This document shows, in pieces, positions 4,001 to 56,723 of a stretch of 64,000 bases of DNA; positions within the stretch are counted from its first letter, which is position 1, and each line of letters begins with the position of its first letter. Below the pieces are notes generated by a model. That model saw nothing but the letters and a program-made list of their open reading frames with translations. It did not search any database and was not told the origin of the DNA. The position numbers and the translations under genes were made by a program. Origin of the DNA: the human T2T-CHM13v2.0 reference genome, Homo sapiens; the NCBI RefSeq assembly GCF_009914755.1, contig NC_060934.1. One strand, 5' to 3'.

Positions 4001-4105
4001 TTCATTAAATAATCCAATATATCTTTTGAATAAAATCAGGTCGCTATCAATGTATTTCAAACATATGAAGACATAAAACACAGAGATGATGTTAAAATCT
4101 TTTAC

Positions 4106-4178
4106 CTTCTGGGTCGTAGGTTTGAAAAACTCTTCTGGCTTGTTCTGAAGGAGCTTCAGGGGCAACTAAAGCCATATC
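4106..4178 (-). CDS. MINDY3: MINDY3 coding exon 11 (73 nt): DMALVAPEAPSEQARRVFQTYDPE(D), start of the EF-hand-like insertion
   Basis: cttttcag|GATATG...CCAGAAG|gtaaaa; F.TYDPED resembles an EF-hand loop start. Confidence 0.95.
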
Positions 4179-6503
4179 CTGAAAAGATAAGAAGCATGTT
4201 GTCAACCAGCTACAGTATTATGACATTAAAAAGAAAACAGATACTAGGGTAGGCAGACATAATGACATTGGAGTCAGAAGACTTTGAGTTACATTTGTAT
4301 CATAGATGTGTAACGAGATAGGTCATAAACTCTCCAGGCCATTTATTTTACGTCTGAAAAGTGGCAATAAAAGCTTAACCACAGAAAAGTGTTGTGAATA
4401 ATACATGTGGAGTTTTACATAAATACTTAAAACACTGGGGAAAAACGTCTAATACAGGTAGTTACTATAAAAATGTAGCATGAAAAAAAAAAACAAAAAA
4501 CAAAACAAACACAAAAACAAAACCCAAACCATTTTTTCCACATTTTTTTGTTCAGGTAAGAAGAAATAAAATATACTCCAGTTTTCAAATATTCGAAAAT
4601 AAAATCCAGAGATTTATTATAGCAAATAATGATACAATGAGATAGCAATGCATTAAAAATTTTAATTTAGTAACCTAGTCAAAGCTCAATCAACTTCTAC
4701 ATGTCCAGAATTTTAATTTTTCTGAACTCAAAGGAAACACCCTAGAGGACAGAAATTTCTTTCCCCCATAAAACAAATTCTCTACCATGACTAATTTATC
4801 ACAGAAAACATTTATCAGGATTCTAAGCACAAAAATTGTGTTCTCTTTGATTCTTTACATTTACCCCACATATCTAAGCCATTATGAAATTCTACTTGAC
4901 ACACATGAATCTAAAATGTAGGCTCCTGTTGTTTACCTCTGGTTAGCTTTTACCTATAATTGTCTTTGCCTATAATGGTGTTTACTCAGACAAACGTCAT
5001 CAGAGGGTAAGTTTCCAAGTATCCCTTCCTACTACCTTGAATCCTTTTTATGGGGTACAAATGTTAACATCTAAACTGCTGTTCCCCTGTGAACACAATT
5101 TTTGCAAGAAATGTACTTCTTAACTGTTGTTCTAATATCTCACCTTTACTCTGTTCACAGGTGAAGAAACTAAGAATCAGAGGAGTTCTAACTGAGCCAT
5201 GAGGACTCGATTCCTGAAAACCTTATTTATAAAAAACAGGAATGGGAACTAAAACAAGGCAACCTGTGCAAGCCCTTACAAGTTTTTCATGTATTACAGT
5301 AAAAGGTAAAGCAACTTAAAAACCACTTGACATTTTTTAACATTTGTAAAATTTTGTAATGCACAGTTGTCTCTCATTTACCATCCCTTGCTAGAAACTT
5401 CTTAGGCTCACCCTTCACTGCATTTCCAACATTATTTTGCTGATAATGTATACGCCCAAGTGACATGTTTTCATTTGGCTTAACTTTCAATGCCTTTTTG
5501 ATTTTATGATCTAGTCCTTTATTGCTGGACCCTTGAATTGTATCTAGTCTTCTGCTATTACAAAAAATGCTGAATCAAATAAACCTGAACATGTAACATC
5601 ATAAACGTGCAGTTATATTTGCACAGCAGGTCACCAGAGTGGGATGGCTGGGTCAAAGAAAGGTTTATTTAACCTGAACAGTATTTCTTAAAACCCTCTT
5701 TCCTTTTTCTGATACATTACCAATACAGCCTTAGCTCTATAATTAACTCTTATGCCAAAGCTAGGACTGCAGTGTTGGCTCTCAGATTTAGGGAGCAATT
5801 GCTGACATGTGGGTTATTATTATTCCTCAGTTCCCTTTATCACTCCCAAACCTTAGTTGCAGATTTCTACATTTATTCTAGTATAAGCTTTAGCTCCCTT
5901 AACTATTTCTAACACATTTTTCTTTTTCAATTGTCTCCGTTAGACTGTTGAAATTTATAGATGAACACCATAACCTTTGAAATTCTGGCTGAGAAGGTAC
6001 ATGGTTACAGATTCAAATTTTATGCAGAGGGGAACTTACAGGGGCACAAAATCAGGATACAGTTATTCTTTCTATTCGCCATCTGTTACATTCTCAACCT
6101 TTTTTTGCGGTCACCAATGAATGAGGAAAAGTTCTGAAATGAGTTTTAAGATACTGCTGGTAATTTCTAAGTATTATTTAAAACTATGATCTAAACAGAA
6201 GAAAAGGGAGTATCAGGTTACTTTTTTCTGGGTTAAATCTTTTTGGGGGAAAGGTAGTAGAAATGTAACTGAAGCGTTACTTCAATATTGCTACAAAGTA
6301 AAGTTTGGGAAATTATCGCTGTTTACATAGTAGAGGGAAGCAAGTAGAATTCCAGATTTTAGCCATAGAAGGTTTAGATCAGATTCTCTGGCATTAAGGA
6401 GCTGACAGTTCAGGAGTGTAAAAAGAATTTAAAGTAAACTACCTGATGCCTTGTCTCTAAGTGCCAAGTGTTTTTTTTTTTTTTTTTTAAATACTCTGCT
6501 AGT

Positions 6504-6912
<409 letters not shown>

Positions 6913-7214: not shown

Positions 7215-7508
7215 TTTATTTATTTTTTTTAGATGGAATCTTGCTCTGTTGCCCAGGCTGGAGTGCAGTGGTGTGATCTTGCCTCACTGCAACCTCCACC
7301 TCCCAGGTTCAAGCAAATCTCTGCCCCAGCCTCCCTAGTAGCTGGGATTACAGGCATCCACCACCATGCCCGGCTAATTTTTGTATTTTTAGTAGAGACC
7401 GGGTTTCACTATCTTGGCCAGGCTGGTCTTGAACTCCTGACCTCATGATCCACCCACCTCAGGTTCCTAAAGTGCTGGGATTACAGGCTTGAGCCACTGC
7501 AACCAGCC
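7215..7508 (-). mobile_element. Alu (AluS-like)
   Basis: Reverse Alu with poly(T); taacatttatt repeated on both sides (TSD). Confidence 0.95.
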
Positions 7509-8016
7509 TTTAACATTTATTAAACATGCCAACTTTTTGATATATGGGGGGAGTAAAGACATCTTAATCACTTTTACAGATTTTACAAAGAATATATTTT
7601 GGCTATTAGCAGAAATAGAAAAGAGGGCACAGAATTCTAGCTAGAAGGAACGGAATCAGGAAAGGCAGGGAGATGTGACTTCATAGCACACAGGGAAACT
7701 GAAAAAGGTGAACAGGACTGAGAACTGTGACAGAAAAGGAGGACTTAGGAAGGGAAATGAGCTTTGACAGAAGAATGAATTTGATTTTCGAACTTTTAGA
7801 GTTTGGAGGTAATGGTTAAACATCCAAGTAGAATACATGGAGTTATCTTAATACTTGGCACACTACGAACACTCACTGTTAGCTAACTGCGAGCTTCTCG
7901 TGAGCTATTAGAAATAGAATATTAGTGTTAGACTGAGGTTACGGCTGGGGAACTTGCAAGGGAAAATATTGAAAACTTATGGAAGCAGATTCCTTCAAAG
8001 AACTAAGAAGCGAGTA

Positions 8017-10243
8017 CAGTTGATCCTCAAACAACATGGATATGAACTGCATGGGTCCACTTATATGTGAATTTTTTCTCAATAAATATATTGGAAATTT
8101 TTCTTGGAAGAAATTTTTCTTGGAAATTTGTGACAATTTGAAAAACTCGCAAACTGTGCAGCCTAGAGATATTTTCAAAAGTTAAGAAAAAATTAAGTAT
8201 GCCATGCATGCATAAAATATATGTAGATACTAGTCTATTTTTTCTACTACCATGAAATGCCACAAATCTATTATAAAAAGTTAAAATGTATCAAAACAGG
8301 GGCATACGGACTGTACCTGGCACCACTCACAGTCAAGAGATGTAAACGAATGTAAAGATGCAGTATCAGATCACAACAGCATAAAATTAACTTTAGTGCA
8401 TACTGTACTACTGGAATAATTTCATCACCATCTCCTGATGCTATTGTGGTGAGCTTGTGTTGTATCTGCTCAGAGCACAAGTATGGCGCTAATCATCTCC
8501 GCATGTGCAGCCCATCACTCCAGTGAGTTCCACATCACAGTAAAAAGTGATCTTAAGCAGTTCTCACATACTTTTCATCATGTTTAGTGCAATACTGTAA
8601 CTCTTGAAAAAAAACCATGGAACCCATATGAAGTGCCACTAGTGATGCCGGAAGTTCTCCCAAGAAACCAAAGTCAGGACGTAAGAAAAAGTGGAATTGC
8701 TTGATATGCACCATGGATTGAGGTCTGCTGCTGTGGTTGCTCACTATGTCAAGATAAATGAATCCAGCATAAATATCGTAAAGAAAGAAAAGGAAATTCC
8801 TGAAGCCATTGCTGCAGCCATACAAACCTTCCGCTTTTTGCAAAATACCTCCTTGTACAAAAAATGCAACTTGTATGTAAGTGCAGGGTTGCTATAGGAA
8901 AGGCACACCTTTAGATTCTAATATGATTTAAGAAAAAGTGCAGTCATTATACAAGCTAAAGCAAAACAAAAGTAAAGGAGCTAAAGGTGGAGAACTTAAT
9001 GCCAGCAAAGGATGGTTTGATAATTTTAGAAACTGGTTTGGCTTTAAAAATATCAAGGTAACAGGAGAAGCAGCTTCTGCTAACAAAGAGGCAGCAGTTA
9101 AGTTCTCAGAAACCATTAAGAAAATCTTTGAGAAGAAAGAATATCTGCCTGAACAGGTTTTTAATGTGGACAAAGGTGTCCTATTCCGGCATGGGGGGGA
9201 AATGCCATAAAGGACATTTATAAGTAAGGAAGAGAAGGAAGCACTAGGATTTAAGACAGAAAGGAAAAGGCTACTGTTTTATGCACATGCAGTCAGGGTG
9301 ATGACCAGGACTGCCCTTATTTATAAAACTGCTAAACCCAAGCCTTGAAGGGAAAAGATAACACCAGCTGCCAATCTTTTGGCTGTATAAGAAAGAAGGC
9401 CTGGAAGAGAATGCTTTCTCTGGATCAGTTCTATCAATGCTGTGTACCTGAAGTTACCTAGTACCCTGCCAGTAGGAGACCACCTTTTAAAGTTCTTTTG
9501 ATATTGGACAATGTCCCTGGCCACCCAGAATCCCATGAGCTCACCACCAAAGGCACCAAAGTAGTTAACTGCCCTCAAACACAACATCACTAATACAGCC
9601 TCTAGATTAGGAGGTCATAAGGACCCTTGAGGCTCATTACACACAGTAGTCTGCAGAAAAGATGATATGGTTATTGCTATTAAAGAGAACCGCAACAGCA
9701 AGAACAACATGGAAGTCTGGTAGGATTACAGTACTGAAGAGGCCATCACTGTTACAGAAAAAGCTAATCCATCTGGCCCAAAACATATTCCTGCTAGAGA
9801 ACACTGTGTCCAGATATTGTGCATGAGTTCATAGGATTTACAGAGCCAATCAGAGTAAAGGGTTTCAAGATAAAGATCTTGGAGAAATTCAAGAGCTAAC
9901 AGATACCACATCAGAAGAAATAACAGAAGATGGCTTGATAGAGATGAGTGCTTCTGAACCAGTGCTGGACAATGAGGAAGATGACGTAGAAGAAGCAGGG
10001 CCAGAATACAAACTGACATTCATTATAATTTTAACATATTCTTTTCTCCGGCTTACGAGATTACAGTATATAATACATATAAAATACAAAATATGTGTTA
10101 ATCTACTGTTGGTTACGGTAAGGCTTCCAGCCAACAACTGGCTACTAGTAGTTAAATTTTTGAGGGAGTCAAAAGTTGTATGTGGATTTTTGACTATGCA
10201 GGGGGTTAGCACCCCAACTCCCATGTTACTCAAGGGTCAATTA
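8017..10243 (+). mobile_element. Tigger2 (pogo-family) DNA transposon with decayed transposase
   Basis: TA|cagttgatcctcaaacaaca...tgttactcaagggtcaatta terminal inverted repeats; ORF 8938..9210 gives ASKGWFDNFR..FG.KNIKVTGEAASA...YLPEQVFNVD (CENP-B/pogo HTH plus the first D of the DDE domain), broken by stops and frameshifts. Confidence 0.9.
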
Positions 10244-10260
10244 TGTTTTCAAAAACGAAC

Positions 10261-10605
10261 TGCATTAGTCTGTTTTCACACTGCTATAAAGATACTACCT
10301 GAGGTGGGGTAATTTATAAATAAAAGGTTTAACTGACTCATAGATCTACATAGCTGGGGAGGCTTCAGGAAACTTATAATCATGCCAGACAGCGAAGGAG
10401 AAGCAAGCACCTCCTTCACAAGGCAGCAGGGGAGAGAGCATGCAGGGGAAGCACCAGACATATATCAAACAACCAGATCTCCTGAGAACTCACTATCAGA
10501 AGAACAGCATGGGGGAAACAGCCCCCATGACTCAATCGCCTCCCACCAGGTCCCTCCTTACTATGCGAGATGAGATCTGGGTAGGGACAAAGCCAAATCA
10601 TATCA
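10261..10605 (-). mobile_element. MaLR solo LTR (MSTA/THE1-like)
   Basis: tgcattagtctgttttcacactgctataaag...gggacaaagccaaatcatatca matches the reverse of the MST consensus. Confidence 0.85.
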
Positions 10606-12320
10606 GGAATTAAGGCAACTTATTGGCTGAAGTTAAGTGTAAAACAAGTAACTCAAAACCCTGTATGTGGGGAAATGATAACAAACCCATTTGTTAGCTA
10701 TTTAAACAGAAACTCTTTCTTTCCTCCCAACATACAACCCAGTGATACTGGTTAGGCTCCAAATAACAAAACCACCAACTGTAACTGTCATTACTAATAC
10801 AACAAACTGTGTCTTGAACAATAAAAAAAAAAAAATCATGTTTTGCTCTTTTGGTCTCAGTCGTATACTACTAACAGCTAATTTGGTCAACTCTTTAGGC
10901 AATAACTCTTAATCACACCACTTAAAAAAGATGTGTTTACACTAGAGGATGAAAAAAGAGAATAAAAAGAGAAAAAACCCAAGAGATTATTGTAAATTCA
11001 AATGGAAACATTCCAGAAGTTTTCTTCCACAAATCAAAACCAGTACATAGTCTTCTAAAGTGATTACTGGCTTGCTTATTTTGACTGTTTACAATGCTTT
11101 TTGGATCACTGTAGAAAATGATCTTTTATTTAAACCTTGTTTAAATTTATGTAATGTTTAAATGTTCAGAGATGTAATCAGAAAGTTATGAAACCACCTT
11201 CTATTCCCATTAAAGTGTTTCATGTTGCAGTTCTTTTAACTCTGTAATTTTAATTCAAATTATAAACACTAATTTTTGCCGATTTATTTAACTTAAACAC
11301 TTGCAAACAGGGTTCCTAGTATAAAGATCTGTAGACTAATCCATGTAGCAAACTTAATATTAATATATCAATATACTGCATATTTGCATAGCAAGTTTGA
11401 AGAGCAAGTATAGAATTACATTCAATTGAGAGTGTTTTACAATCAAGACAAAACACTTCAGAGGTATAACTGCCGTATTTTTCTTATTGTACATAAAATG
11501 GTTTAGTTAGAAGGAATGTAATGACTTTATAAATGTGAAGAGGAGGATTCTACCCTCAGATTTTCCATTTCCAAAATTTAATATAGCAACAGCTTTTAGG
11601 TTCCATATGTAGTATATTTTCTCTATCTAACTATACATAAAACCATAATTTCTTAAACATTTGGCAGGCTTAATAGATGGTAGAGAAAAACCCAGTCTGT
11701 GCACTTAAGGTCGCAGTCTAATAGAACAGAGAAAAACATGCTACTCTATCTTTACTTCCAAGAATCTTATTAAATTTATCCTAAGAAAATTATCTTCCAA
11801 GATGAAGTTCTAACAAATGTACACTAATCCTACACTCCCCCACCACACACACAAAAAACCCCACGAATGATAATTAAGTAAAGGGATTCCAAGGTCAGCA
11901 AATACACTTGCATTTTCTTTTCTTCATCCCTAGTTGTAATACTTAGGAGAAAATTTCAACATGTACTGCATTTGGAACTCTTTTAGGTACCCTCAGTAGG
12001 AAGAGATCCTACACATGAGACTCAACGATTACATACTGTTTTAGTTAGCAATTTAAGCTCTGATTTACCATCAAAATTATTTTTATTGTAAAAGCAGTTC
12101 TTTACATTAGTCTGATATAATCACATGATTTTATCAGAGGAATTTATATTCAACCAATTTACTGGTCAACAGGGATTGCAAAACAATATAGCTTTTAAAA
12201 TTATCTAGCCTCACTCAGCTTAAATGCAGAGGGTTGGCGGGGGGGCGGGGGATGGAAGTAGGTGGACCAAGCTGTTAATGGGACTATCTAATAGCCTACA
12301 ATCATGAAACAGATATCTCC

Positions 12321-13449
12321 TTTTCACGTAGCTCTGTATTATCAGTGTAACTATTCACTATTCACCATAAACCTTTTAAAATGTTGTAACATTAGCCATC
12401 CTTCTAAACACCTACTGAAATATAAGGCCTGTGTACAGTGGGTTGGCTGGGGATAAGTAATTCATTACTGAAAAGGTCTTTAAAGTTTTTCTCATTAAGC
12501 CTTTCATCGTTATGAAGAGCAATCTGCTGTCACGATTCATCAAAGAACCTCCAAGAGCATCGTCATCTAACTTCAAGAATGACTGCACATATATAAATGA
12601 CATTTTAGCTTGCAGACAACATATTATAGTGTTTAAAGTCCCTCCAATAAATAAATAAAAGGTAAATGCTGTATAATTTACCTTTAAGCAAAATTTTACT
12701 TTATAATGTTTCACCTTTAGTCTTTGCTTACTATCTGTATTTATGAACAAATAATTTGGGAAATAGATTTTAAGTCAATTACATCATCTCAAAACACAGA
12801 ACGTCATTAGTGGCAGCAAGATTAACAGAATTCAGTTAATCCCAATACCTGAAAGCAGGAAGGATGGTGGTCTTTTCTCTTATTCTTCCATTATTTTCCA
12901 AATAACGTGTAAAGCCCAGGTCACCTCCACAGTAGCCCACTGCTGTGAGGCACCAATCTGTGTCGTATGGGCAGAGAAATCAGGGTAGGAAACACAGCAG
13001 ACAGCCCTCTGACGTTCTTCCTCTAGAAACACAGACTCTAAATGCACAAGTGGAAATAACGCAGTGGGAGAAGAAGTTTCCAACAGATGTCATCTACTCT
13101 TGTGCCATAATTATTAAAATCATTAATGAGTGAGCTGCTGACTCTCCAAATTATCGTAATCGACCAACTAACTTTAACAAATCCGTCAAGCTTTTCTTGA
13201 AGTTAGACGACGTTCTTGGAGGTTCTTTGATTATTCATGACAGCAGATTGCTCTTCATAATGATGAAAGGCTTAAAGAATAAACTTTAAAGACCTTTTCA
13301 GTAATGAATTACTTATCCCCAGCCAACTCACTGTACACAGGCCTTATAATTCAGTAGGTGTTTAGAAGGATAGTTAATGTTACATTTTAAAAGGTTTCTG
13401 GTGAACAGAGAATAGTTATACTGGTAATACAGATAGAGGTACCTGAAAA
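12321..13449. repeat. Long imperfect inverted repeat: arms 12321-12579 and 13194-13449, spacer 614 nt
   Basis: Manual alignment of arm 1 to the reverse complement of arm 2: about 20 substitutions and about 4 small indels over ~255 nt; perfect 47-bp core 12442-12488 / 13281-13327. Confidence 0.97.
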
Positions 13450-13537
13450 AATAAAGTTCCTCTTTATTTCAAAGTTAGGACTCTTTGTATCACTGGAATT
13501 AAACTGTTCAATCACCTAGTGATACAAGGTAATCGAT

Positions 13538-13880
13538 GGTGGTAGATAATATTATTGTTCCCAATTAGTTGCTGCTTCCTCCTTCTAAGAGGATTATTTG
13601 TCACTGTCTGTTGCTAAGTGACCTGAAGTACTTTTCTCTGAAATGGGCCTACTTCCTTGCCTCATTGACATCAGATTCAGCCAGAGAAATACAACTGGGA
13701 GTGACATTATGCTAGCTCCTAGCAGAAACTTTAAGTGCCACTATCTGGTTTGGCCAGAAGTCTTGTTCTTTTCCCTCTCTTATGAGAACTGCACATTCCA
13801 GGCAGAAGCTACTCCTTCAGCCCAGATCTTAAAATAAAAGAGACACGTGGAGCACACCTGCAGCCAACATGTAAGTTATG
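13538..13880 (+). mobile_element. Old MaLR LTR (MLT1-like) fragment
   Basis: tggtagataatattattgttccc...gacacgtggagcacacctgcagccaacatg typical of MLT1H/I/J. Confidence 0.5.
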
Positions 13881-14969
13881 AGGGCGGTAAGCTTTGGGCT
13901 GGGTGTGTTGGGGAGAGAGGTATGGTGGCTGTGGTGTGCTCCAGTACAGCCAAAAAGAGGGTACATTGCTTTTAGAGACGTTAAAACATTCTCAAATTCC
14001 TTTTTGCCATCACCACGTGCAGACAAATCTGAACAATGTCAGTAGTCACACACTCCTCCTACCCACAGGATGGGCTGTTCTCATCGCCCCCTTCTTGAGT
14101 ACCACTGTGTACAGGACTGAAATGTCAGGGTTGTTGGTTACTGCAGCAAGCTGGCAAAGGGGATTAAAACCTAATATTCTGGCTGGGGCTGTATGTTGCT
14201 TGTGCCACATGTACTCTATTTGATCTTCCTATTGAGAGCAGTCTATATTTTCCTCTTGTGTCTTCCCTCATGCTATCCAGTAACTCTGACCTTAACAATG
14301 TAAGCTGCACATGGAGGAATCTCCACATACGCAGACTTCATGTTTCCTATGAAAATTAATGCTTAAGAAGATTACTGAAACTGTGTCTACTCAATACCAA
14401 TAATTTAATCTTGGGAGGCTTGGATTAGTATGAACAAAAAGTGAGGGCCCCCAACCAATCCTACCTCGTTTTCTACAATTTTAAACAAGGTTTGCATGAT
14501 TACAAATTAGTCACAGTACTCACATTTATAATTTAAAATTTTATCACAGCTGTGCAGAGAAGCTTTGACTGTTGATTCAGAAGGCTGCTCTACTTCCATG
14601 AATTTGCTTTACATTCATGCCACGGATATTCCTGTTTAGCTTTCCATATCAAGACAGACTTTCATATAGTAAGGACAATTTGTAAATAAATGTGATTATT
14701 CAAGCTGGTCCTACAGCTGATCGTCAACCTTTGGTTTCATCTTAATATCCTAGCACAACTAGTATGGTTTAGCTATCATCTACCAATTACTATTCCCCAA
14801 ACACAGTATTAACTTTCCCATTATAACACTACATCTATACAGCTTTCACTTCATATCAGTCTCAAAGTTACCATGTCCTTTCATTCAAGTATAATCTTTT
14901 CTACACCTACTTCTTCCCTCTTCCAGGGTCTACTCTACTCTAGCAGAATGAGTTGTTTTCTTAAGGGAG

Positions 14970-15220
14970 GGAAGTAGTTAAATGCATAGCTCAGAAGTCA
15001 GAAGACTGGAGTTTAAATCCTGCCTTGGTACTCACTAGTATCTAACTTTGGAGATGTCATTTTTCTCACTGGCCCCAGACTGTAACATGCAGATGAAAAC
15101 GGCACGCAGCTCACAGGGTTGGTTTGAGGATTAAATGAGGAATGCTCCTGAGATGATTAATTAGCATACTGCCTAACATACAGACAACATTCAGTAAACA
15201 CTCACAGTAAACTATTACCA
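14970..15220 (+). mobile_element. MIR
   Basis: gtagttaa...gaagtcagaagactggagtttaaatcc...gaggattaaatgag. Confidence 0.7.
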
Positions 15221-18200
15221 TGTATTATTAATCCTTACGTTCCAACAGTACTTACCACAATACTGAATGTGTGTGACAGTAGGTAGTGTGGGAAATCAGT
15301 TAGTGCCACAAGAAGGAAGGAAGTTGGAAGAAAGAACAGGAGCAACAAGAGAGTAGGAGAATCAGCGGACACAATACGAATGGTGGAAGGTTGGACCAGG
15401 AATGCTGAGCAAGACTTTGATAAGCGTATTCTGGGCAGAGGATAACATAAGCAAAGCATGTGCAAACACACACAATAATCCCCCAAATTAAACTTAGTAA
15501 GACTTAGTGGCGGTCATCTATTAACCATACAAGACCTTTTTTTGTACTCTGCTATCAACTCTACTGGCTATGATTTTTTTCTATCAATTCTGAACAGATA
15601 GCTAGGGGTGTGGGCTTAATGATACTGACTCTTAATTAAAACTCATAGGCTTCATTCCTAACAGAATACTTCTAGGCCCTTCCATCAGTATTTTATCTTT
15701 AGACAATTATTTGGATACTATTGTAAGAGAAAAAGAAAAATTCAGTGGAAAAGAGAGACTTCTTCCAGGAAGGCTGACATCACTGATGACTGAGAAGTAA
15801 TAAGTAAAAGAAAAAGAAAATTCAGGGAAATCACAAAAACCAGAATATACAAATACAGCTGCATAAGGCAAAGAGTACATAAGGGTAACTGATGTTCACT
15901 TGGCTTAAGGAGGCAAGAACATTTATATTTTGAAAGATTTCTGGTCAAAATAATTAAAAATGAAAAGCTTTAGTATTATTGTGGTACAAGTCATTGGCAT
16001 AATCCTAGATGGCTGATGGGGGACAGCCCCAAATTGTGCTAAGCAGGTAGGAAAGAGTTTGTGATTAAAAATTTACATACTTGTAATAATTCAAATCACT
16101 GAGAATAATTAAGCTGTCCAGATGTCTACCCAGACTTTCCAAGTAGTTCAGATAAGAGATTAACTTCAGGATCCTTTAAGTTGTTATTTTAAGGTCTTAA
16201 AAGTCACAGAAGTTATGATTAAACTACAAGAACAAATAATTAGCATTTTCCCTATTTCCTTTCTGTATTAGATGAGGCACGAAATCTCAATATATGCACA
16301 AACTCCAGAATTTACTTAAGATAAAAGGATGAGGTAACTAAACTGCAATAAAACACAAAATGCCAACTGTGAATTTTCTTGGAAGAGTAAACGTATAAAG
16401 CACCACTTTACAGCTTTTCCTTAACACCGTTTTATTACATGCAGAGAAATGTCGATGTAGAACTGTCCAGTTTTTAAACACCTAAGAGAGAAAGGCTCTA
16501 ACAGTTCACCGCAGTGTTTTTCCTGTTACACCAAGGAGTAATAAAAGCAGCTTGTGCTGTAGAAATAATTCTCCCTACATTCCCAGTAACAGATCCCACT
16601 GGAAGAACAATGTCAGCTCACACAGCAACAGTTAAATAATTTTTTCCTCCTTAGCATTAAATTCAGTTTCTTTATATGAACAGTTCTGTCATGGATATTC
16701 ACGTGTTCATGCCTGACAAGAAAACTGCTTTTATCAAAGGAAAGGTCAAAGGTGAGGTTCCGCACACACATAGAGCCCCTTTATAACCATAAAAGAGAAC
16801 AAAAAAGTGATGTAAAACTCATCTCCCCAACTTCAATGAAGAGTTTAAATGGAGTACCAAGCAAATTAGCCACTGATCTTCTGAAGATGAAACTAGATGC
16901 TATAGGCAGGGTCCAACTATTTTTATACTGGATCAACAGCTGTCACTCCACATTGAGATTCAAATGCACAGTAAAAACAAAAAAGGCATTTATTATGTCT
17001 TCCATTTTATACATTCTAAATTCTAGTAATATTTAAAGTAGATTTTCAGATTTAAAGTGCCCATTTTGAATTTGCATTGAAAATTAATTTCCTAATTAGT
17101 TCCCAATTCGAGGGAAATTAAGAAAGTGACCCAAATAAATTATTCTTAAAACCCAAGTATAAAAATAAAAGATGAAGAATCAATGAGGAAAACGATGGTT
17201 AGGGAGAAAATAGAGGACAAATGCCCTAATGTTTGAACACTTAAATAATTATGGATTATTATGAAAGACCTGACTCCTAACATATTTGACATATTACAAA
17301 ACAAATGTTACACAGCCTTCATCTAATAAGAGCTAGTTTTTTCTTCTGAAATTAAGGAAAAACAATTCAAAAAGTTTAAGTTCTGTATTCCTTAAGCGTC
17401 TACTTTTCAAAATACATTTCTTTTTACCTGTGCAGTAGGTTCGCATGTTTTCAAGTAACCTCAATGAAAGTGCCATGATACGATTTCTGAAGACCCATGC
17501 CTACAGGGCACATTCTGTCTCCATGTACAGACCTTTGTTCTGCCACAGTTCAGATGACCTGCTTGGAAAGTTCTCCATCGTACTTAATAGGAATTAAGTT
17601 TCCCTCTTTGAAGAGGTCCATTTACGTACTGCATTTCACCTCACCCGTATCCTCTTATTAGAAGTTCTGTGGGAACCCTGCTGCTTGATGACTCTGCAGT
17701 TCCTATAAGGTTCCTGAAGTTAGATTCTGTGATATTCTCCCTCAGTAGTAACTACAAAAATCTCATTTACATAGGGTGGCTTAGATGCATTTCTCACAAC
17801 CAGACTCCTTAGGATACTATGTCAAGGAGTACAATAACAGTTTTGTTGTTTGACAGAGACAGAGGGTTAGTAGGAAAAGATGACTCTTTCTATATCAGAC
17901 AGAAAATATGATTTATAAAACATGGTGGTTTAAATTTAAAAACTTAAAATTATATTTCTTCATGAAAGAAATGTTATAAATGATCAACCTGAACATTTTT
18001 ACAACCTCTTCATAAAATTATTAAATTTATTTTTAATGATGATTCTCAAGTAAAACTGACTTGTGAAAAATCTCTTTTAATCCTACAAAATGTGTTGGAT
18101 GATTATAGGTCAGGAAGAGGGCACCAGTACAATTAAAAAGGTAAATTCTGGGTCACTGGATATATCAAATATAAAGTGATAAGTTCATTAAGTAAATACT

Positions 18201-18659
18201 TTGGCACTGAAAATTAAAATCATGAACCTATACTAGTGCCCTTTAAAAAAATTATATTTAATTACTTTAAGTCCTAAAAGTAAATTGTTCATTTCAAAAA
18301 CAAAAACAGATAGTTAAGAGGTTATTTCACTGGACAGAAGCAATTTTCTTAACCATCCTCAAATCATGAAAGTAAATTTTGAACATGTTACAGCATATAG
18401 GTAGTTTCACAAAGCTTATTTGTAAATACTCATGACAGCTGTTTCTATTCAATAATACGGGTGGTTTGAATTGGTCAGGTAGGATAGCAAAAGCTAGTTT
18501 TTCTATTTGCCCTCCATGTAAGATAGAGATCTATTGAATTCTGATGATCCAAGACTATTCAGCCATCTTAAGCACACCTCCCGACCCCCAACTTATCAAG
18601 TAATAACATGGTCATCTCACAATTTTTTTAAGATGGATCTACAGTGTGTTCTATAATGT

Positions 18660-18800
18660 ATTTGGTCAACAAAAAGTCATTGAGCACCTACACTATGCCT
18701 GGCACTGCTCTAGGACCTGGCAAACAGTAGGTGACAAAACACAAAAATCCTGCCATCACAGAGCTTACTACAGAGAGAGACAGATAATATAGAAAACAAG
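18660..18800 (-). mobile_element. L2 3' fragment
   Basis: caacaaa..attgagcacctac.atgcctggcactgctctagg. Confidence 0.6.
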
Positions 18801-18814
18801 TAAATATACAGGAC

Positions 18815-19070
18815 GAATCTAGTACCCAGAATATATTAAAAAACTCTTATAACTCAATAACAAAAAGACAAACAACCCAATTAAAAAACAGGCGAAGGAC
18901 CTGAACAGACGTTTATCCAAAGAACGTCTAGAAGTGGACAACAATCACATAAAAAGATGCTCATTAGTCATTAGGGAAATGCAAATCAAAATTACAATTA
19001 CCACTTAACACCCACTAGGATGATTATAATAATAATTTTAATGATCCAGTATTGGCAAAGATGTGGAAAA
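18815..19070 (+). mobile_element. L1 (L1M) fragment, ORF2 3' end
   Basis: acaaacaacccaattaaaaa...gacctgaacagac...cattagggaaatgcaaatcaaaa. Confidence 0.8.
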
Positions 19071-19945
19071 ATTCAGTTTTCAAACTCTGCCAATTATTTT
19101 GATAATGCAAATGAACACGGGCCACAAGCTTCGACTTCTAAAGGAAAGCAGGTTAGGAATAAGGGTAGAGAAGAAAAGAAAAAACAACTCAATAAGAAAA
19201 TCAAGTCAAATTTAAATAAACATAATTCACAATAAAACCGAAGTTGAAATGTCAAAGATTTTTTTTCTGAGAAAGAAAAATGCTATAATTTTAAAACTTA
19301 GCCAATATACTATACTACTTTCATCATATTTAATCGCTGAGACCTTAGTTCATCCTGTATATAAATATACCAAAATATATTTTTTGAAAAATTTACTTAC
19401 AAAATTTAGAAAAAGGAGCCAAAGCCATCAACCACTTGCCATCACAGTATTTTCAGTGCTAGTCATGAGACTATGTATAGATTAATATTTCTGAAAATTT
19501 TGGAAGTGATATTCACTTCTAACACAACACAAACACAAATTATTCCAAAACTGCAATGTATTTAAAGCAGTGGTATATGTATTTGAATGTCACTGATTAA
19601 CAATACTTTTAAATCATGAAAAATGAATAGAACTCAAAACTGCTACTATTTAAGAAAATGTCAATTTGTGCTTCATCTTACCTATAATATAGTTAACATT
19701 ACTCATAATTTTTGCCCAAAGCCACTAATTTGCTTCAGGAAAAAAAATAACATATGTGCACTTTCTCCTTATTACTAGGGTCTAATACATGAAGCTTTCA
19801 TTCCTACAAAAATTTAATTACATGTGTACAGAACATATAAAACTAGTATTTATAACCTAAAACTTCAGAATAAAACTTTCTAATTAGATGCTTAATTCAG
19901 TTTTCCATGTACATTTGCAATAATGCTTAATTTTTCATTTTTTAA

Positions 19946-20252
19946 ATTTTTTTATTATTTTTATTTTTTTTGAGATGGAGTCTTGCTCCTTCACCCAGGT
20001 TGGAGTGAAGTGGCACAATCTCAGCTCACTGCAACCTCCGTCCCCTGGGTTCAAGTGATTCTCCTGCCTCAGCCTCCTGAGTAGCTGGGATTACAGGTGC
20101 CCAGCACCACGCCTGGGTAATTTTTGTATTCTTAGTAGAGATGGGTTTTGCCATGTTGGCCAGGCTGGTCTCGAACTCCTGACCTCACGTGATTCACCTG
20201 CCTCGGCCTCCCAAAGTGTTAGGATTACAGGCATGAGCCCCTGCGCCCGGCC
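19946..20252 (-). mobile_element. Alu (AluSx-like)
   Basis: Reverse Alu consensus. Confidence 0.95.
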
Positions 20253-20899
20253 AATTCTTGATTTATTCTATAAATTTCAATGTTCTATAATTTCTGGGAA
20301 ATAGTATAATTATCCCTTCTCAATTATTCATGTGTTAAATATTACTCACAACATCTTTTACTTTATTAATTCACTTAACACATTATCTTTTTACCCCATA
20401 CAGAAGGTTAAATTCAATACAGCTTCTGATATTTTACTCTATCTTAGCTATCACATTTCTGCCTTCCTACCCATGCAATATTAGAAAAGTTTTTAATTCC
20501 TCTATGGACTGGTTCCTTTGGCATAAAGAATAGATGTGGGTCAAAGGATTCTGACAGCTCTCACTAGTGCTAAATTTAAATTTAAAAACTAAGCAGTTTC
20601 TACGTGGTGCATCAGTCTACATAACAGATTGTCTCCCATCACTGCTCTTTGGAGGGAAATACAAGAAGAAAGTCATGTCAGAGAAGCTACAGCATAGCTC
20701 TCCACATGCCTGTCTGAGAGGTACCTCTTATTTCCCCAATCCCACTTATTACGTGATGTGCATACAGTGAACAAATTGCTTTAATAACAAGCAGTTACAT
20801 TCAACAACAGCAAAGCTGCTAAGTACACATTTTCTAAAGCTCTAAGATCTAATCATTAGCCACACCTATCTTATTAGACATTTCTACCCCTCCGCTGCC

Positions 20900-23964: not shown

Positions 23965-24343
<379 letters not shown>

Positions 24344-35271: not shown

Positions 35272-35556
35272 AGCCAGGCGCGGTAGCTCACGCCTGTAAT
35301 CTCAGCACTTTGGAAGGCCGAGGTTGACGGATCACCTGAGGTTGGGAGTTCGAGACCAGCCTGGCTAACATGGTAAAATCCCGTCTCTACTAAAGATACA
35401 AAATTAGCTGGGCATGGTGGCATATACCTATAATCCCAGCTACTCGGGAGGCTGAGGCAGGAGAATTGCTTGAACCCGGGTTAGGCAGAGGTTGCAGTGA
35501 GCCAGGATCGTGCCACTGCACTCCAGCCTGGGTGACAGAGTGAGACTCCGTCTCAA

Positions 35557-35587
<31 letters not shown>

Positions 35588-39621: not shown

Positions 39622-39987
<366 letters not shown>

Positions 39988-54730: not shown

Positions 54731-55034
<304 letters not shown>

Positions 55035-55875
55035 AGAATGCATTCTTAATACCCAATGAATAATAAATGCCACATTAAATATATATATTTTCAAAACACG
55101 ATGGTTAAAACATAAACAATAAATTAGCTGTAATTTTTATAACAGTTCTTTTATAACACTTCCAAAGTAACACTGTCATTCACAGACATCATCAGTATTA
55201 CAGTAAACTGAGAATTCAATTCTTGGTTTTAACAATTTAACAGTTTATAGCGAATCAGCCTTTGAAATTCAAACAATGTAACATACCAAGATTCCAAATC
55301 AAATAAAGACATTCCGATAAATCCTATGTTTTGTGCAAAGAAAAAACATTTTTGGTTTTTGAAATTGTTTGAAATCAGTTGTTACGAATTTTATTCAGAA
55401 AAGCCAAAGCTATAGCATAAAATAGTATAAGCTGCCAACTTTTTTCAAATTTGAAAAAGTTATAAGCCAGAAAAATATGAAATCACCTTCAGCTTTAGGA
55501 AAGTAACTTTTACAGACTGAAATAATGAAAATAGTACAATTACAGTGATTGTACCTATCTAGTGTATAACATGTTATTACTTAATAGGATCTCTGTGTTA
55601 AAGAAGTCAAGAAACTTCCTAATTTTCTGAAAGTCAGGGAACGCCTATTATTTTTCCTTGAAAATAAAGATTGTCAAAAGGCTACTATTGCACAACTCAT
55701 CGATATGGTGAATTCATTTTTATTTTGGATATTTATTGTAATTTACATGAGCAAAAGTTAAGAGTTAATTGATTATGTCTCATAATTACTATATGGAGTA
55801 CAGACATTAGAAAACGACAAGTATGAAACGTTTCAAAATGTCCCTCTAAGGAGTTGGTAAAGGAGTCTATGTTAC

Positions 55876-55955
55876 CTGAACAGGTGCAATAACAGCACAG
55901 GGGCCACCTTCAAACTGTTCTAATGCAGATCCCTCTGATTCACTAAACACAAACC
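55876..55955 (-). CDS. MINDY3: MINDY3 coding exon 2 (80 nt): (G)FVFSESEGSALEQFEGGPCAVIAPVQ, contains catalytic Cys51
   Basis: Minus strand tttag|GGTTTGTG...GTTCAG|gtaac; translation matches the recalled MINDY3 sequence with the Q-x-x-GGPC catalytic motif; phase fits exon 3. Confidence 0.96.
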
Positions 55956-56364
55956 CTAAAAATGAAAGCAAGTAGGAAAGATTAAAAATATAATTCAAGT
56001 AGCAGCTAAAAGAATCTTTCATGTACTTTGCTTTGAGAATGATCACTTATCACAACAGCAAAATATCTTCAAATCATGAGGTGTGGATCAAGGAACCTTT
56101 TGAAAAAAAAATCTATAGAACCTATCCACCCCCACTCCCAAATGCACGTAAGAGTACATATACTCACACAATTTTGCACCCAGGAACTCCTCTAGGAGGA
56201 TAAAGTATGGACTTTAGTAAAATGACACTGAATCTGACTTTTCATCTAAGGAGGACTAGATAGTCTACTAAATTCAAACAATTTTTAGAACTCTTTAAAT
56301 ACCATATCATTCTATCATTTCAAACTTTCTGTCACATTCTATAAGCTAATCATTACATGGCATT

Positions 56365-56723
<359 letters not shown>

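What the first reader, a model, noticed from the sequence alone, without database searches (positions are those of the whole stretch)
12321..13449. Long non-Alu inverted repeat able to form a ~255-bp dsRNA stem in MINDY3 intron 10
Seen in sequence: 12321-12579 is the reverse complement of 13194-13449 at roughly 90% identity. It has a perfect 47-bp core (12442-12488 / 13281-13327) inside a ~90-bp block with only 2 mismatches, and identity decays towards both ends. The arms resemble no Alu, L1, L2, MIR or MER that I recognise, and I see no TA or 8-bp TSD at the ends. About half the substitutions are transitions, giving about 4 G-U pairs and about 6 A-C mismatches in the MINDY3-sense RNA. Established knowledge: long intramolecular duplexes are substrates for ADAR (A-C mismatches are favoured editing sites), Dicer and PKR/MDA5, and can loop out exons or drive back-splicing. 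Inference: this may be an old palindrome kept homogeneous by selection or arm-to-arm conversion and acting as a structural RNA element. It is the best candidate for an undescribed system in this window.
Basis: partly seen in the sequence, partly recalled or inferred. Interest (0 to 1): 0.85.

Follow-up and report, generated by a model that had tools for sequence, protein, structure and literature searches.

The report
Single-locus inverted duplication in MINDY3 intron
A 256-259-base stretch in a long MINDY3 intron is present twice in opposite orientation about 600 bases apart, so the intron RNA can fold into a long hairpin; it looks like an ordinary, neutrally decaying one-off duplication, not a new kind of system.

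Summary
Window 12321-12579 is the reverse complement of 13194-13449: 252 aligned positions, 19 mismatches, 4 indel events, a 47-bp perfect core.

Within the reference genome the arms match only each other, and the 614-bp spacer matches nothing else. A control repeat was found at 80-84% identity. I found no target-site duplication, ORF, Pfam or Rfam signal. It is therefore not a detectable multi-copy transposon.

The arms pair as RNA on either strand: about 235 bp, -365 to -368 kcal/mol, against -73 for shuffled arms. Both arms lie in one MINDY3 intron and one lncRNA intron, so they bracket no exon.

The differences look neutral: 10 transitions to 9 transversions, bulging indels, and no significant clustering of mismatches. 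Divergence (K about 0.08) suggests an event 18-40 Myr ago.

Best reading: a one-off local inverted duplication, probably by replication template switching. It yields an intronic hairpin of the catalogued "non-repetitive dsRNA" kind. Orthologues, Dfam and editing data could not be consulted.

The parts
12321..12579 (.). Left arm of the inverted repeat (259 bp)
   Evidence: Local alignment, MAFFT A1, the repeat finder. Its only other genome match is the right arm, at 89% identity and E = 9e-89.
12442..12488 (.). Perfect 47-bp core of the left arm (partner 13281-13327)
   Evidence: Mismatches at 12441 and 12489 bound it. A run this long is not significant under uniform placement of the 23 differences (P = 0.20).
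12580..13193 (.). 614-bp spacer, the loop of the hairpin
   Evidence: Unique in the genome, matching only itself. Its two halves show no residual palindromic similarity (score 11 against a shuffle mean of 10.3). No Rfam match and no Pfam match for its ORFs. CpG o/e is 0.40.
13194..13449 (.). Right arm of the inverted repeat (256 bp)
   Evidence: Its only other genome match is the left arm.
12231..12251 (+). Canonical G-quadruplex motif 70 bp outside the left arm. It is a possible fork-stalling trigger of the duplication (inference only).
   Evidence: A regex scan of both strands of the 64-kb window found this single match to four runs of G3 or longer with 1-7-nt loops. The link to the duplication is a post hoc inference.

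Best explanation
This is a one-off, locus-specific inverted duplication. A segment of about 256-259 bp of unique intronic DNA was copied in reverse orientation about 614 bp away, in a single event.

The most likely mechanism is replication template switching, with the nascent strand folding back on itself. Stalling at the adjacent G-quadruplex motif may have triggered it. If so, the left arm is the new copy.

The event dates to roughly 18-40 Myr ago, in the anthropoid or catarrhine lineage. Since then the two arms have decayed neutrally.

Both strands here are annotated as transcribed: MINDY3 on the - strand and LOC124902383 on the +. The unit is therefore part of intron RNA, where it can fold into an imperfect hairpin of about 235 bp with a 614-nt loop. 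Such a stem would be promiscuously A-to-I edited by nuclear ADARs and discarded with the intron. It has no dedicated function.

Shown here: the repeat, its uniqueness, its sharp edges, the predicted fold, its position within one intron, and the neutral-looking substitution pattern. Inferred: the template-switch mechanism, the role of the G4 motif, the age, the editing and the lack of function.
For: 1. Only two copies exist. Genome-wide DNA searches with either arm return only self and partner (2 of 2 candidates). The spacer returns only itself.
2. A sequence-only profile of the two arms gave 262 and 253 bits for the arms. The next best was 23.4 bits with E = 0.09; 150 of 29,923 first-look candidates were scored.
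3. The 17 weak hits do not form a family. Three are tandem satellite-like DNA similar to one another, two share only 38-52 nt with the arms, and twelve match nothing. The best one, L004, is itself unique in the genome.
4. There is no third copy in the window with filters off; the next best match scores 9.6 bits.
5. The search tool does detect copies at about 80% identity. A control repeat at 10237-10560 gave 8230 candidates, and 40 of 40 scored matched, 39 of them non-self at 80-84%.
6. Homology stops sharply at all four edges.
7. There is no target-site duplication: 3 near-matches against 1.9 in shuffles, P = 0.25.
8. There is no coding or known-RNA signal.
9. The decay looks neutral: 10 transitions to 9 transversions, 4 indel events, 4 CpG-associated changes, and no significant clustering of mismatches.
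10. K2P is 0.080, or 0.062 without CpG sites. That gives point ages of 18-40 Myr for recalled rates of 1.0-2.2e-9 per site per year, with a sampling range of 11-64 Myr.
11. [quoted passage not shown]
12. The only canonical G4 motif in the 64 kb lies 70 bp from the left arm.
13. The stem is predicted on both strands.
14. Both arms are in one intron.
Against: 1. No orthologous sequence could be examined. The age, the lineage restriction and which arm is the copy all rest on a two-sequence clock and on recalled substitution rates.
2. Gene conversion between the arms would make the element older than estimated.
3. The whole unit, spacer included, has CpG o/e 0.38, against 0.18 and 0.19 in the 2-kb flanks. 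That is the 96.5th percentile of windows of that size in the 64 kb, with Poisson P about 0.024. A simple copy of old local DNA does not predict this. It fits better with the whole 1.13 kb being younger DNA, or with germline hypomethylation.
4. The 90-bp low-mismatch block is borderline (P = 0.06).
5. No clear microhomology was found at the junctions. A 4-nt match is seen at the inner junction only after allowing a 5-nt gap, by my own reading of the sequence printed.
6. The G4 link is post hoc. I estimate P at about 0.01-0.1, depending on the motif density assumed.
7. RepeatMasker/Dfam was not available. A very old, highly diverged family cannot be formally excluded, because only 150 of 29,923 profile candidates were scored.
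Confidence: 0.62

Rival explanations
1. The whole 1,129-bp unit (arms plus spacer) arrived at once as a single-copy insertion with terminal inverted repeats of about 255 bp. It would be a dead-on-arrival non-autonomous DNA transposon or foldback-type element, or other imported DNA, that never amplified in this genome.
For: CpG o/e is raised over the arms and the spacer alike (0.48, 0.27 and 0.40), against 0.18 and 0.19 in the flanks (Poisson P about 0.024 for the unit and 0.064 for the spacer alone). By my reading, the arms carried at least 4-5 CpGs at the time of duplication, which is high for old AT-rich DNA. The outer edges are sharp. From recall, the estimated age overlaps the last period of DNA-transposon activity in anthropoids.
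Against: No target-site duplication of any length from 2 to 12 bp was found within +/-20 bp of the ends beyond the shuffle expectation. No other copy exists in 3.1 Gb, although a family of that age would be easy to find (control). There is no transposase remnant. From recall, the termini do not resemble hAT, Tc1/mariner or piggyBac ends. The CpG excess rests on 14 sites.
Confidence: 0.13
2. One reading: an old palindrome whose arms are kept alike by selection for a double-stranded RNA stem, or by arm-to-arm gene conversion. It would act as a structural RNA element, for example an ADAR-binding or ADAR-editing platform, a modulator of intron 10 processing, or a source of hairpin small RNAs.
For: The stem is long and stable on both strands. 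The arms are single-locus sequence rather than a transposon. A 91-bp block has only 2 mismatches (P = 0.06). Its size, pairing and loop length resemble the 'edited non-repetitive' dsRNA class of PMC11838218 (Table 1 medians: 144 bp, 87.5% paired, 509-nt loop).
Against: No excess of pairing-preserving changes is seen. Nine of 19 substitutions are transversions, and 4 indel events bulge the stem. G-U against A-C counts are 4/6 and 6/4 on the two strands, so neither strand is favoured. The clustering of mismatches is not significant. No exon lies between the arms. There is no Rfam match. In PMC11838218 (section 12), conserved dsRNAs are short and weakly paired (median 65 bp, Table 2), and over 99% of predicted dsRNAs have phastCons below 0.5. 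From recall, 255-bp arms at 8% divergence are poor gene-conversion substrates.
Confidence: 0.07
3. The arms are termini or fragments of a very old multi-copy repeat family that has diverged beyond the reach of these searches. The high arm-to-arm identity would come from a later local duplication or conversion.
For: The profile search scored only 150 of 29,923 first-look candidates. The annotation at hand masks only high-copy repeats of 100 bp or more and gives no family names. Dfam was not available.
Against: The best non-self profile hits are not significant (E >= 0.09) and are unrelated to one another. Even if this were true, the 92% arm identity would still need the same local inverted duplication, so the main reading would change little.
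Confidence: 0.08

Closest known systems
Non-repetitive intramolecular dsRNAs predicted genome-wide by dsRNAscan (PMC11838218; abstract, passages, sections 10 and 12 and Tables 1-2 read)
   Same: The two arms are reverse-complementary unique sequence within one transcript. The loop of about 600 nt compares with a median of 509 nt in the edited non-repetitive class. About 90% of bases are paired (class median 87.5%), and the longest uninterrupted helix is 47-68 bp (class median 30).
   Different: It is longer and more stable than the class median: about 235 pairs and -365 kcal/mol, against 144 bp and -185.
Inverted duplicates of mammalian genomes (Chen et al. 2017, PMC5398296; abstract and sections 12 and 15 read)
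   Same: It fits their definition: arms of 10-10,000 nt and a spacer of 0-1,000 nt. They counted 4,315,271 such elements in human, and 79% of the intergenic ones were primate-specific. A primate-age origin is also what the arm divergence suggests here.
   Different: That study analysed intergenic elements, whereas this one is intronic. Most of their elements are far shorter.
Template-switch mutations that create hairpins in one step (PMC10710096, passages read; PMC7954356, abstract in the search listing only)
   Same: A reverse-complement copy lies next to its source in previously unstructured, non-repeated DNA, and point changes have accumulated since.
   Different: The described cases are short, at miRNA-stem scale. 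Here the copy is about 256 bp with a 614-bp loop. The event itself was not reconstructed, because no outgroup was available.
Inverted Alu pairs in introns, the usual source of human long dsRNA and A-to-I editing
   Same: The predicted RNA is the same: an imperfect intronic stem of about 250-300 bp. The same window holds several such pairs in masked repeat blocks (14 of the 16 inverted pairs).
   Different: The arms here are unique sequence, with no other copy in the genome, and arose by duplication rather than by two independent retrotranspositions.
Non-autonomous DNA transposons with long terminal inverted repeats (MITE or foldback type)
   Same: The anatomy is the same: two long inverted termini around a short non-coding core, with sharp outer edges.
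   Different: There is no target-site duplication, no other copy and no transposase trace.

Membership tests
Class II DNA transposon with terminal inverted repeats (MITE, non-autonomous or foldback) | Terminal inverted repeats at both ends of the unit | tested here: met
   Arms of 259 and 256 bp, 92.5% identical over aligned positions.
Class II DNA transposon with terminal inverted repeats (MITE, non-autonomous or foldback) | Target-site duplication flanking the unit | tested here: not met
   A scan of k = 2-12 with +/-20 bp of play found no repeat adjoining both ends. There were 3 near-matching 8-10-mers against 1.9 in shuffles (P = 0.25).
Class II DNA transposon with terminal inverted repeats (MITE, non-autonomous or foldback) | Other copies of the family in the genome | tested here: not met
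   The arms match only each other and the spacer matches only itself. The profile search found nothing significant beyond the arms. The control repeat was detected at 80-84% identity. Limits: only 150 of 29,923 profile candidates were scored, and there was no Dfam.
Inverted Alu/L1 pair dsRNA | Arms belong to a high-copy retroelement family | tested here: not met
   No masked repeat lies between 10561 and 19923, and the arms have no further genome copies.
Inverted duplicate / non-repetitive intramolecular dsRNA (PMC5398296, PMC11838218) | Two reverse-complementary arms within about 1 kb on one transcript, predicted to pair | tested here: met
   The spacer is 614 bp. The duplex has 234-237 pairs at -365 to -368 kcal/mol, against -73 for shuffled arms. 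Both arms lie in one intron of each annotated gene.
Inverted duplicate / non-repetitive intramolecular dsRNA (PMC5398296, PMC11838218) | Arms do not overlap any annotated repeat (RepeatMasker) | tested here: inconclusive
   No masked stretch of 100 bp or more and no other genome copy. RepeatMasker/Dfam family annotation was not available.
Inverted duplicate / non-repetitive intramolecular dsRNA (PMC5398296, PMC11838218) | A-to-I editing sites on both arms (the 'edited' subclass) | not testable with these tools
   No RNA-seq or REDIportal access, and supplements are closed. Text searches found no report for this locus.
Template-switch (fold-back) mutation product | Inverted copy adjacent to its source, with sharp ends and no further homology | tested here: met
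Template-switch (fold-back) mutation product | Ancestral state with one arm only in outgroup species | not testable with these tools
Template-switch (fold-back) mutation product | Microhomology at the switch points | tested here: inconclusive
   There is only a 4-nt match at the inner junction, and only after a 5-nt gap (my reading of the junction sequences printed). About 8% divergence since the event blurs the junctions.
Putative MDA5-activating long dsRNA (criterion of PMC11838218, section 10) | More than 300 bp, more than 96% paired, and present in a cytoplasmic (exonic or UTR) transcript | tested here: not met
   234-237 pairs over 256-259 nt, about 90-92% paired, and wholly intronic.
Known structured RNA family, miRNA or snoRNA | Match to a curated covariance model or an annotated RNA gene | tested here: not met
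   Zero Rfam matches at E <= 1 in 11500-14300. No RNA gene is annotated in the window.
Conserved functional RNA structure | Covariation or compensatory changes across orthologues | not testable with these tools
   Only the two arms of one genome are available, and compensatory double changes are invisible in such a pair.

The most novel reading that the evidence does not exclude
The stem is not a neutral by-product. It would be a primate-acquired hairpin of unique sequence that is retained because it does something in the nucleus. It might serve as a strong local ADAR1/ADAR2 docking and editing platform in MINDY3 intron 10 and in the antisense lncRNA. That could influence the reported D/G recoding in neighbouring exon 11 or the processing of the 20.7-kb intron. 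Alternatively, it might be a source of hairpin-derived small RNAs. On this reading the low-mismatch 91-bp core and the retained CpGs would be traces of constraint or conversion.
Probability: 0.06. Interest if true: 0.6.

Novelty: new member of a known kind. Interest (0 to 1): 0.2.

Why it matters
As it stands this is an ordinary if unusually clean example. A long, unique-sequence inverted duplication sits in an intron and should give a stem about as long and stable as an inverted Alu pair, without the mapping ambiguity of Alus.

That makes it a convenient natural test substrate for three questions:
- ADAR editing of non-repeat dsRNA.
- The fate of intronic dsRNA.
- The origin of large hairpins by template switching, possibly next to a G-quadruplex.

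It would matter more only if comparative data showed that the palindrome is older than its divergence suggests, or if arm deletion changed MINDY3 processing.

Tried and rejected
Multi-copy transposon. Rejected on copy number (with the positive control), the absence of a target-site duplication and the absence of coding remnants.
- Pfam was run on 5 of the 7 ORFs of 40 aa or more. The two left out (13387-13515 on the - strand, and 13569-13715 on the + strand) lie mostly or wholly outside the unit.
- The single Pfam row, PRA1 at 16.1 bits against a cut-off of 30.1, is taken as chance.

Known RNA family. Rfam gave 0 matches at E <= 1.

Larger, older palindrome with a homogenised centre. There is no residual homology in the spacer halves or in the 400-bp outer flanks, and the clustering of mismatches is not significant.

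Third or source copy nearby. None was found in the 64-kb window with filters off.

Weak profile hits as a hidden family. Rejected. L007, L008 and L014 match one another in several registers, as tandem satellite-like DNA does. The other hits are unrelated to each other, and L004 is unique in the genome.

Exon looping or back-splicing. Rejected on position.

Assembly artefact. Rejected by inference, because 8% divergence with indels is not what a collapsed or mis-joined read gives.

NUMT. G000 has 24 contigs and therefore, by my inference, no mitochondrial record, so this was not directly tested. From recall, other nuclear mitochondrial copies would have been expected to match, and none did.

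Literature. No paper in the searchable library links MINDY3 or FAM188A to an intronic inverted repeat, dsRNA or intronic editing.
- Searches were judged from listings only. For one preprint a single passage was read.
- One search was too broad to count as a test.
- Supplementary tables that might list this locus are closed. These include the dsRNAscan tables S2, S5 and S7, and REDIportal-type lists.

Not done:
- The search for homologous proteins, structure prediction and the Atlas search were not used, because there is no credible ORF.
- No base-rate survey of neighbouring DNA was made, because the 2 Mb reachable would be too small a sample.
Full report
OBSERVATION

An independent local alignment of 11900-12700 against the reverse complement of 13080-13900 returned 12321-12579 paired with 13194-13449. 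The repeat finder reported the same pair as three ungapped pieces: 104 nt at 96%, 85 nt at 86% and 52 nt at 90%.

The MAFFT alignment has 263 columns, 233 of them identical. Of 252 aligned positions, 19 mismatch: 10 transitions and 9 transversions, 4 of them at CpG sites. Eleven gap columns fall in 4 indel events.

The 47-bp perfect core (12442-12488) and the 91-bp block with 2 mismatches are confirmed.

The pair is far beyond chance. The genome-wide match between the arms has E = 9e-89. The arm-arm duplex energy is -365 to -368 kcal/mol, against -72.9 +/- 4.8 for 30 shuffles.

The impression that identity decays from a conserved core is not statistically supported. With the 23 differences placed uniformly, a perfect run of 47 or more has P = 0.20, and a 90-column block with 2 or fewer events has P = 0.06.

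WHAT IT IS NOT

It is not a detectable multi-copy repeat.
- Searching the whole reference with either arm returns only that arm and its partner (2 candidates, 2 scored). The 614-bp spacer returns only itself.
- The tool is able to find diverged copies. A masked repeat from the same window (10237-10560) gave 8230 first-look candidates, and all 40 scored matched, 39 of them non-self at 80-84% identity.
- A sequence-only profile of the two arms (R1) scored 262 and 253 bits on the arms. No other place exceeded 23.4 bits (E = 0.09). Only 150 of 29,923 loose candidates were scored, which is a limit of this test.
- The 17 weak places are not a hidden family. Three (L007, L008, L014) are tandem satellite-like DNA similar to one another. 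Two share 38-52 nt with the arms. Twelve match nothing. The best one is itself unique in the genome.
- With filters off there is no third copy in the 64-kb window.

No target-site duplication of 2-12 bp adjoins the ends (P = 0.25 against shuffles). Every reading frame of both arms has at least 4 stops. The ORFs of the unit have no credible Pfam match, and Rfam finds nothing.

Homology ends abruptly at all four edges. Neither the two halves of the spacer nor the 400-bp outer flanks show residual inverted similarity.

WHAT IT MOST LIKELY IS

The simplest account of two copies, one locus, sharp edges and 8% divergence is a single local inverted duplication.

Age. The K2P distance is 0.080, or 0.062 without CpG-associated changes. 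With recalled neutral rates of 1.0-2.2e-9 per site per year, the point estimate is 18-40 Myr and the sampling range is 11-64 Myr. From recall, this puts the arm divergence between human-macaque and human-marmoset genome divergence. I therefore expect the second arm to be restricted to anthropoid or catarrhine primates.

Mechanism. Replication template switching is documented to create reverse-complement repeats in one step at loci with no earlier similarity (PMC10710096, passages read). The published cases are much shorter.

One local feature fits such an origin. The only canonical G-quadruplex motif on either strand of the whole 64-kb window lies at 12231-12251, 70 bp outside the left arm. 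Suppose a fork synthesising the - strand leftwards stalled there, and the nascent strand primed on itself about 600 nt back. It would then have copied 13194-13449 and produced the present left arm.

This is an inference made after seeing the motif. Its chance probability is only roughly 0.01-0.1. I found no convincing junction microhomology: there is only a 4-nt match after a 5-nt gap at the inner junction, read.

HOW IT WOULD WORK AS RNA

Both strands are annotated as transcribed. The unit lies wholly within intron 10 of MINDY3 NM_024948.4 (20,668 nt; intron 9 of NM_001318330.2). It also lies wholly within intron 2 of LOC124902383 (52,184 nt).

Folding 1,169 nt of either strand gives the long stem as the dominant feature. 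The minimum free energy is -520.8 kcal/mol in MINDY3 sense and -503.5 kcal/mol on the + strand. The duplex has 234-237 pairs with 5-6 G-U, and its longest uninterrupted helix is 47 bp (MINDY3 sense) or 68 bp (+ strand).

From established knowledge of ADARs, such a stem should be promiscuously edited in the nucleus. No exon lies between the arms, so the stem cannot loop out an exon or promote back-splicing of an annotated exon. At most it removes 1.1 kb from the effective length of a 20.7-kb intron.

It is intronic, shorter than 300 bp and about 90-92% paired. It therefore fails the >300 bp, >96% paired, cytoplasmic criterion for likely MDA5 ligands used in PMC11838218 (section 10).

EVIDENCE FOR OR AGAINST SELECTION

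- Transitions, the only changes that can keep a G-U pair, are not enriched: 10 of 19, P = 0.15 against a 2:1 expectation.
- Neither strand is favoured in G-U against A-C oppositions.
- Four indel events bulge the stem.
- Four of the 19 mismatches are CpG-associated. By my reading of the alignment, the two arms share one CpG and differ at the others, as expected from ordinary methylated-CpG decay.
- Compensatory double changes cannot be seen in a two-arm comparison, so covariation was not testable.

One observation does not fit a plain copy of old local DNA. The CpG observed/expected ratio is 0.38 over the whole unit (arms 0.48 and 0.27, spacer 0.40). It is 0.18 and 0.19 in the 2-kb flanks and 0.23 in the window. 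That places the unit at the 96.5th percentile of equally long windows, with Poisson P about 0.024.

This keeps alive the rival that the whole 1,129 bp arrived together as a single-copy element with long terminal inverted repeats. It could also reflect germline hypomethylation. It rests on 14 CpGs.

COMPARISON WITH WHAT IS KNOWN

The object belongs to classes that are already catalogued.
- Chen et al. (PMC5398296; abstract and sections 12 and 15 read) counted 4,315,271 inverted duplicates in human. Their definition is arms of 10-10,000 nt and a spacer of up to 1,000 nt. They dated 79% of the intergenic ones as primate-specific.
- Andrews and Bass (PMC11838218; abstract, passages, sections 10 and 12 and Tables 1-2 read) predicted 5.13 million dsRNAs. 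Of these, 497,429 are non-repetitive and 4,597 of those are edited on both arms. The medians for that edited class are 144 bp, 87.5% paired, 30 contiguous bp, -185 kcal/mol and a 509-nt loop.
- The present stem is longer and about twice as stable as that median, but of the same anatomy.
- In the same paper, conserved dsRNAs are short and weak (median 65 bp), and over 99% of predicted dsRNAs have low phastCons. That sets a low prior for conservation here.
- LIRBase lists 4,590,178 long inverted repeats in 208 vertebrate genomes (PMC8728187, passage read).
- In this window, 14 of the 16 inverted pairs of 60 nt or more within 5 kb lie in masked repeat blocks of about 300 bp. The other two are pieces of this repeat.

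No searchable paper links MINDY3 or FAM188A to this repeat. Supplementary lists were closed.

VERDICT

The proposed exon-looping role and the claim of maintained homogeneity are not supported.

The best explanation is a neutral, one-off inverted duplication of primate age that yields an intronic hairpin (confidence about 0.6). The rivals are:
- a single-copy insertion bearing terminal inverted repeats (about 0.13);
- an undetected ancient repeat family (about 0.08);
- a selected or conversion-maintained RNA structure (about 0.07).

Novelty: a new member of a known kind. Interest is low (0.2). The decisive data are orthologous sequences, Dfam and editing tracks. All are public and quick to consult, but none was reachable here.

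Noticed in passing
window 12231-12251 (+ strand): The only canonical G-quadruplex motif (four runs of G3 or longer with 1-7-nt loops) on either strand of the whole 64-kb window lies 70 bp outside the left arm of the repeat. It may have been a fork-stalling trigger for the duplication. The link was made post hoc.
   Followed up: partly
window 12321-13449 against the flanks 10321-12320 and 13450-15449: CpG observed/expected is 0.38 over arms plus spacer, against 0.18 and 0.19 in the flanks. That is the 96.5th percentile of equally long windows, with Poisson P about 0.024. The cause is unexplained: younger DNA, hypomethylation or chance.
   Followed up: partly
window 54738-55035 and 56364-56661: A 298-nt, 88% complementary inverted pair of masked repeat blocks of about 300 bp lies in introns 2 and 1 and brackets MINDY3 exon 2 (55876-55955). 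The blocks are probably Alu, but the family was not verified. Unlike the finding, this pair has the geometry known to favour exon skipping or back-splicing.
   Followed up: no
window 19931-20258 / 23990-24313; 6497-6792 / 7225-7515; 35274-35579 / 39681-39985: Further inverted pairs of masked repeat blocks lie within intron 10 (the first two) and intron 8 of MINDY3, at 74-86% complementarity. Intron 10 therefore holds several competing dsRNA-forming pairs besides the one studied.
   Followed up: no
window 4052-4068 and 4114-4130 (MINDY3 exon 11 is 4106-4178): A short inverted match (17 nt, 82%, 45 nt apart) links exon 11 with the start of intron 11. A preprint reports a D/G recoding site in the 11th exon of MINDY3 (10.1101/2021.06.10.447947, one passage read). 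Whether this weak hairpin is the editing-complementary sequence was not examined.
   Followed up: partly
window 10561-19923: A 9.4-kb stretch has no masked repeat of 100 bp or more. The masking in the annotation file seems to mark mainly high-copy repeats, so older repeats may be present unmarked.
   Followed up: no
L007 (chr12:37.88 Mb), L008 (chr12:37.90 Mb), L014 (chr11:54.80 Mb): Three of the weak profile hits are similar to one another in several shifted registers (75-82% identity). This is typical of tandem pericentromeric satellite DNA. Their match to the arm profile is taken as a composition or chance effect.
   Followed up: partly
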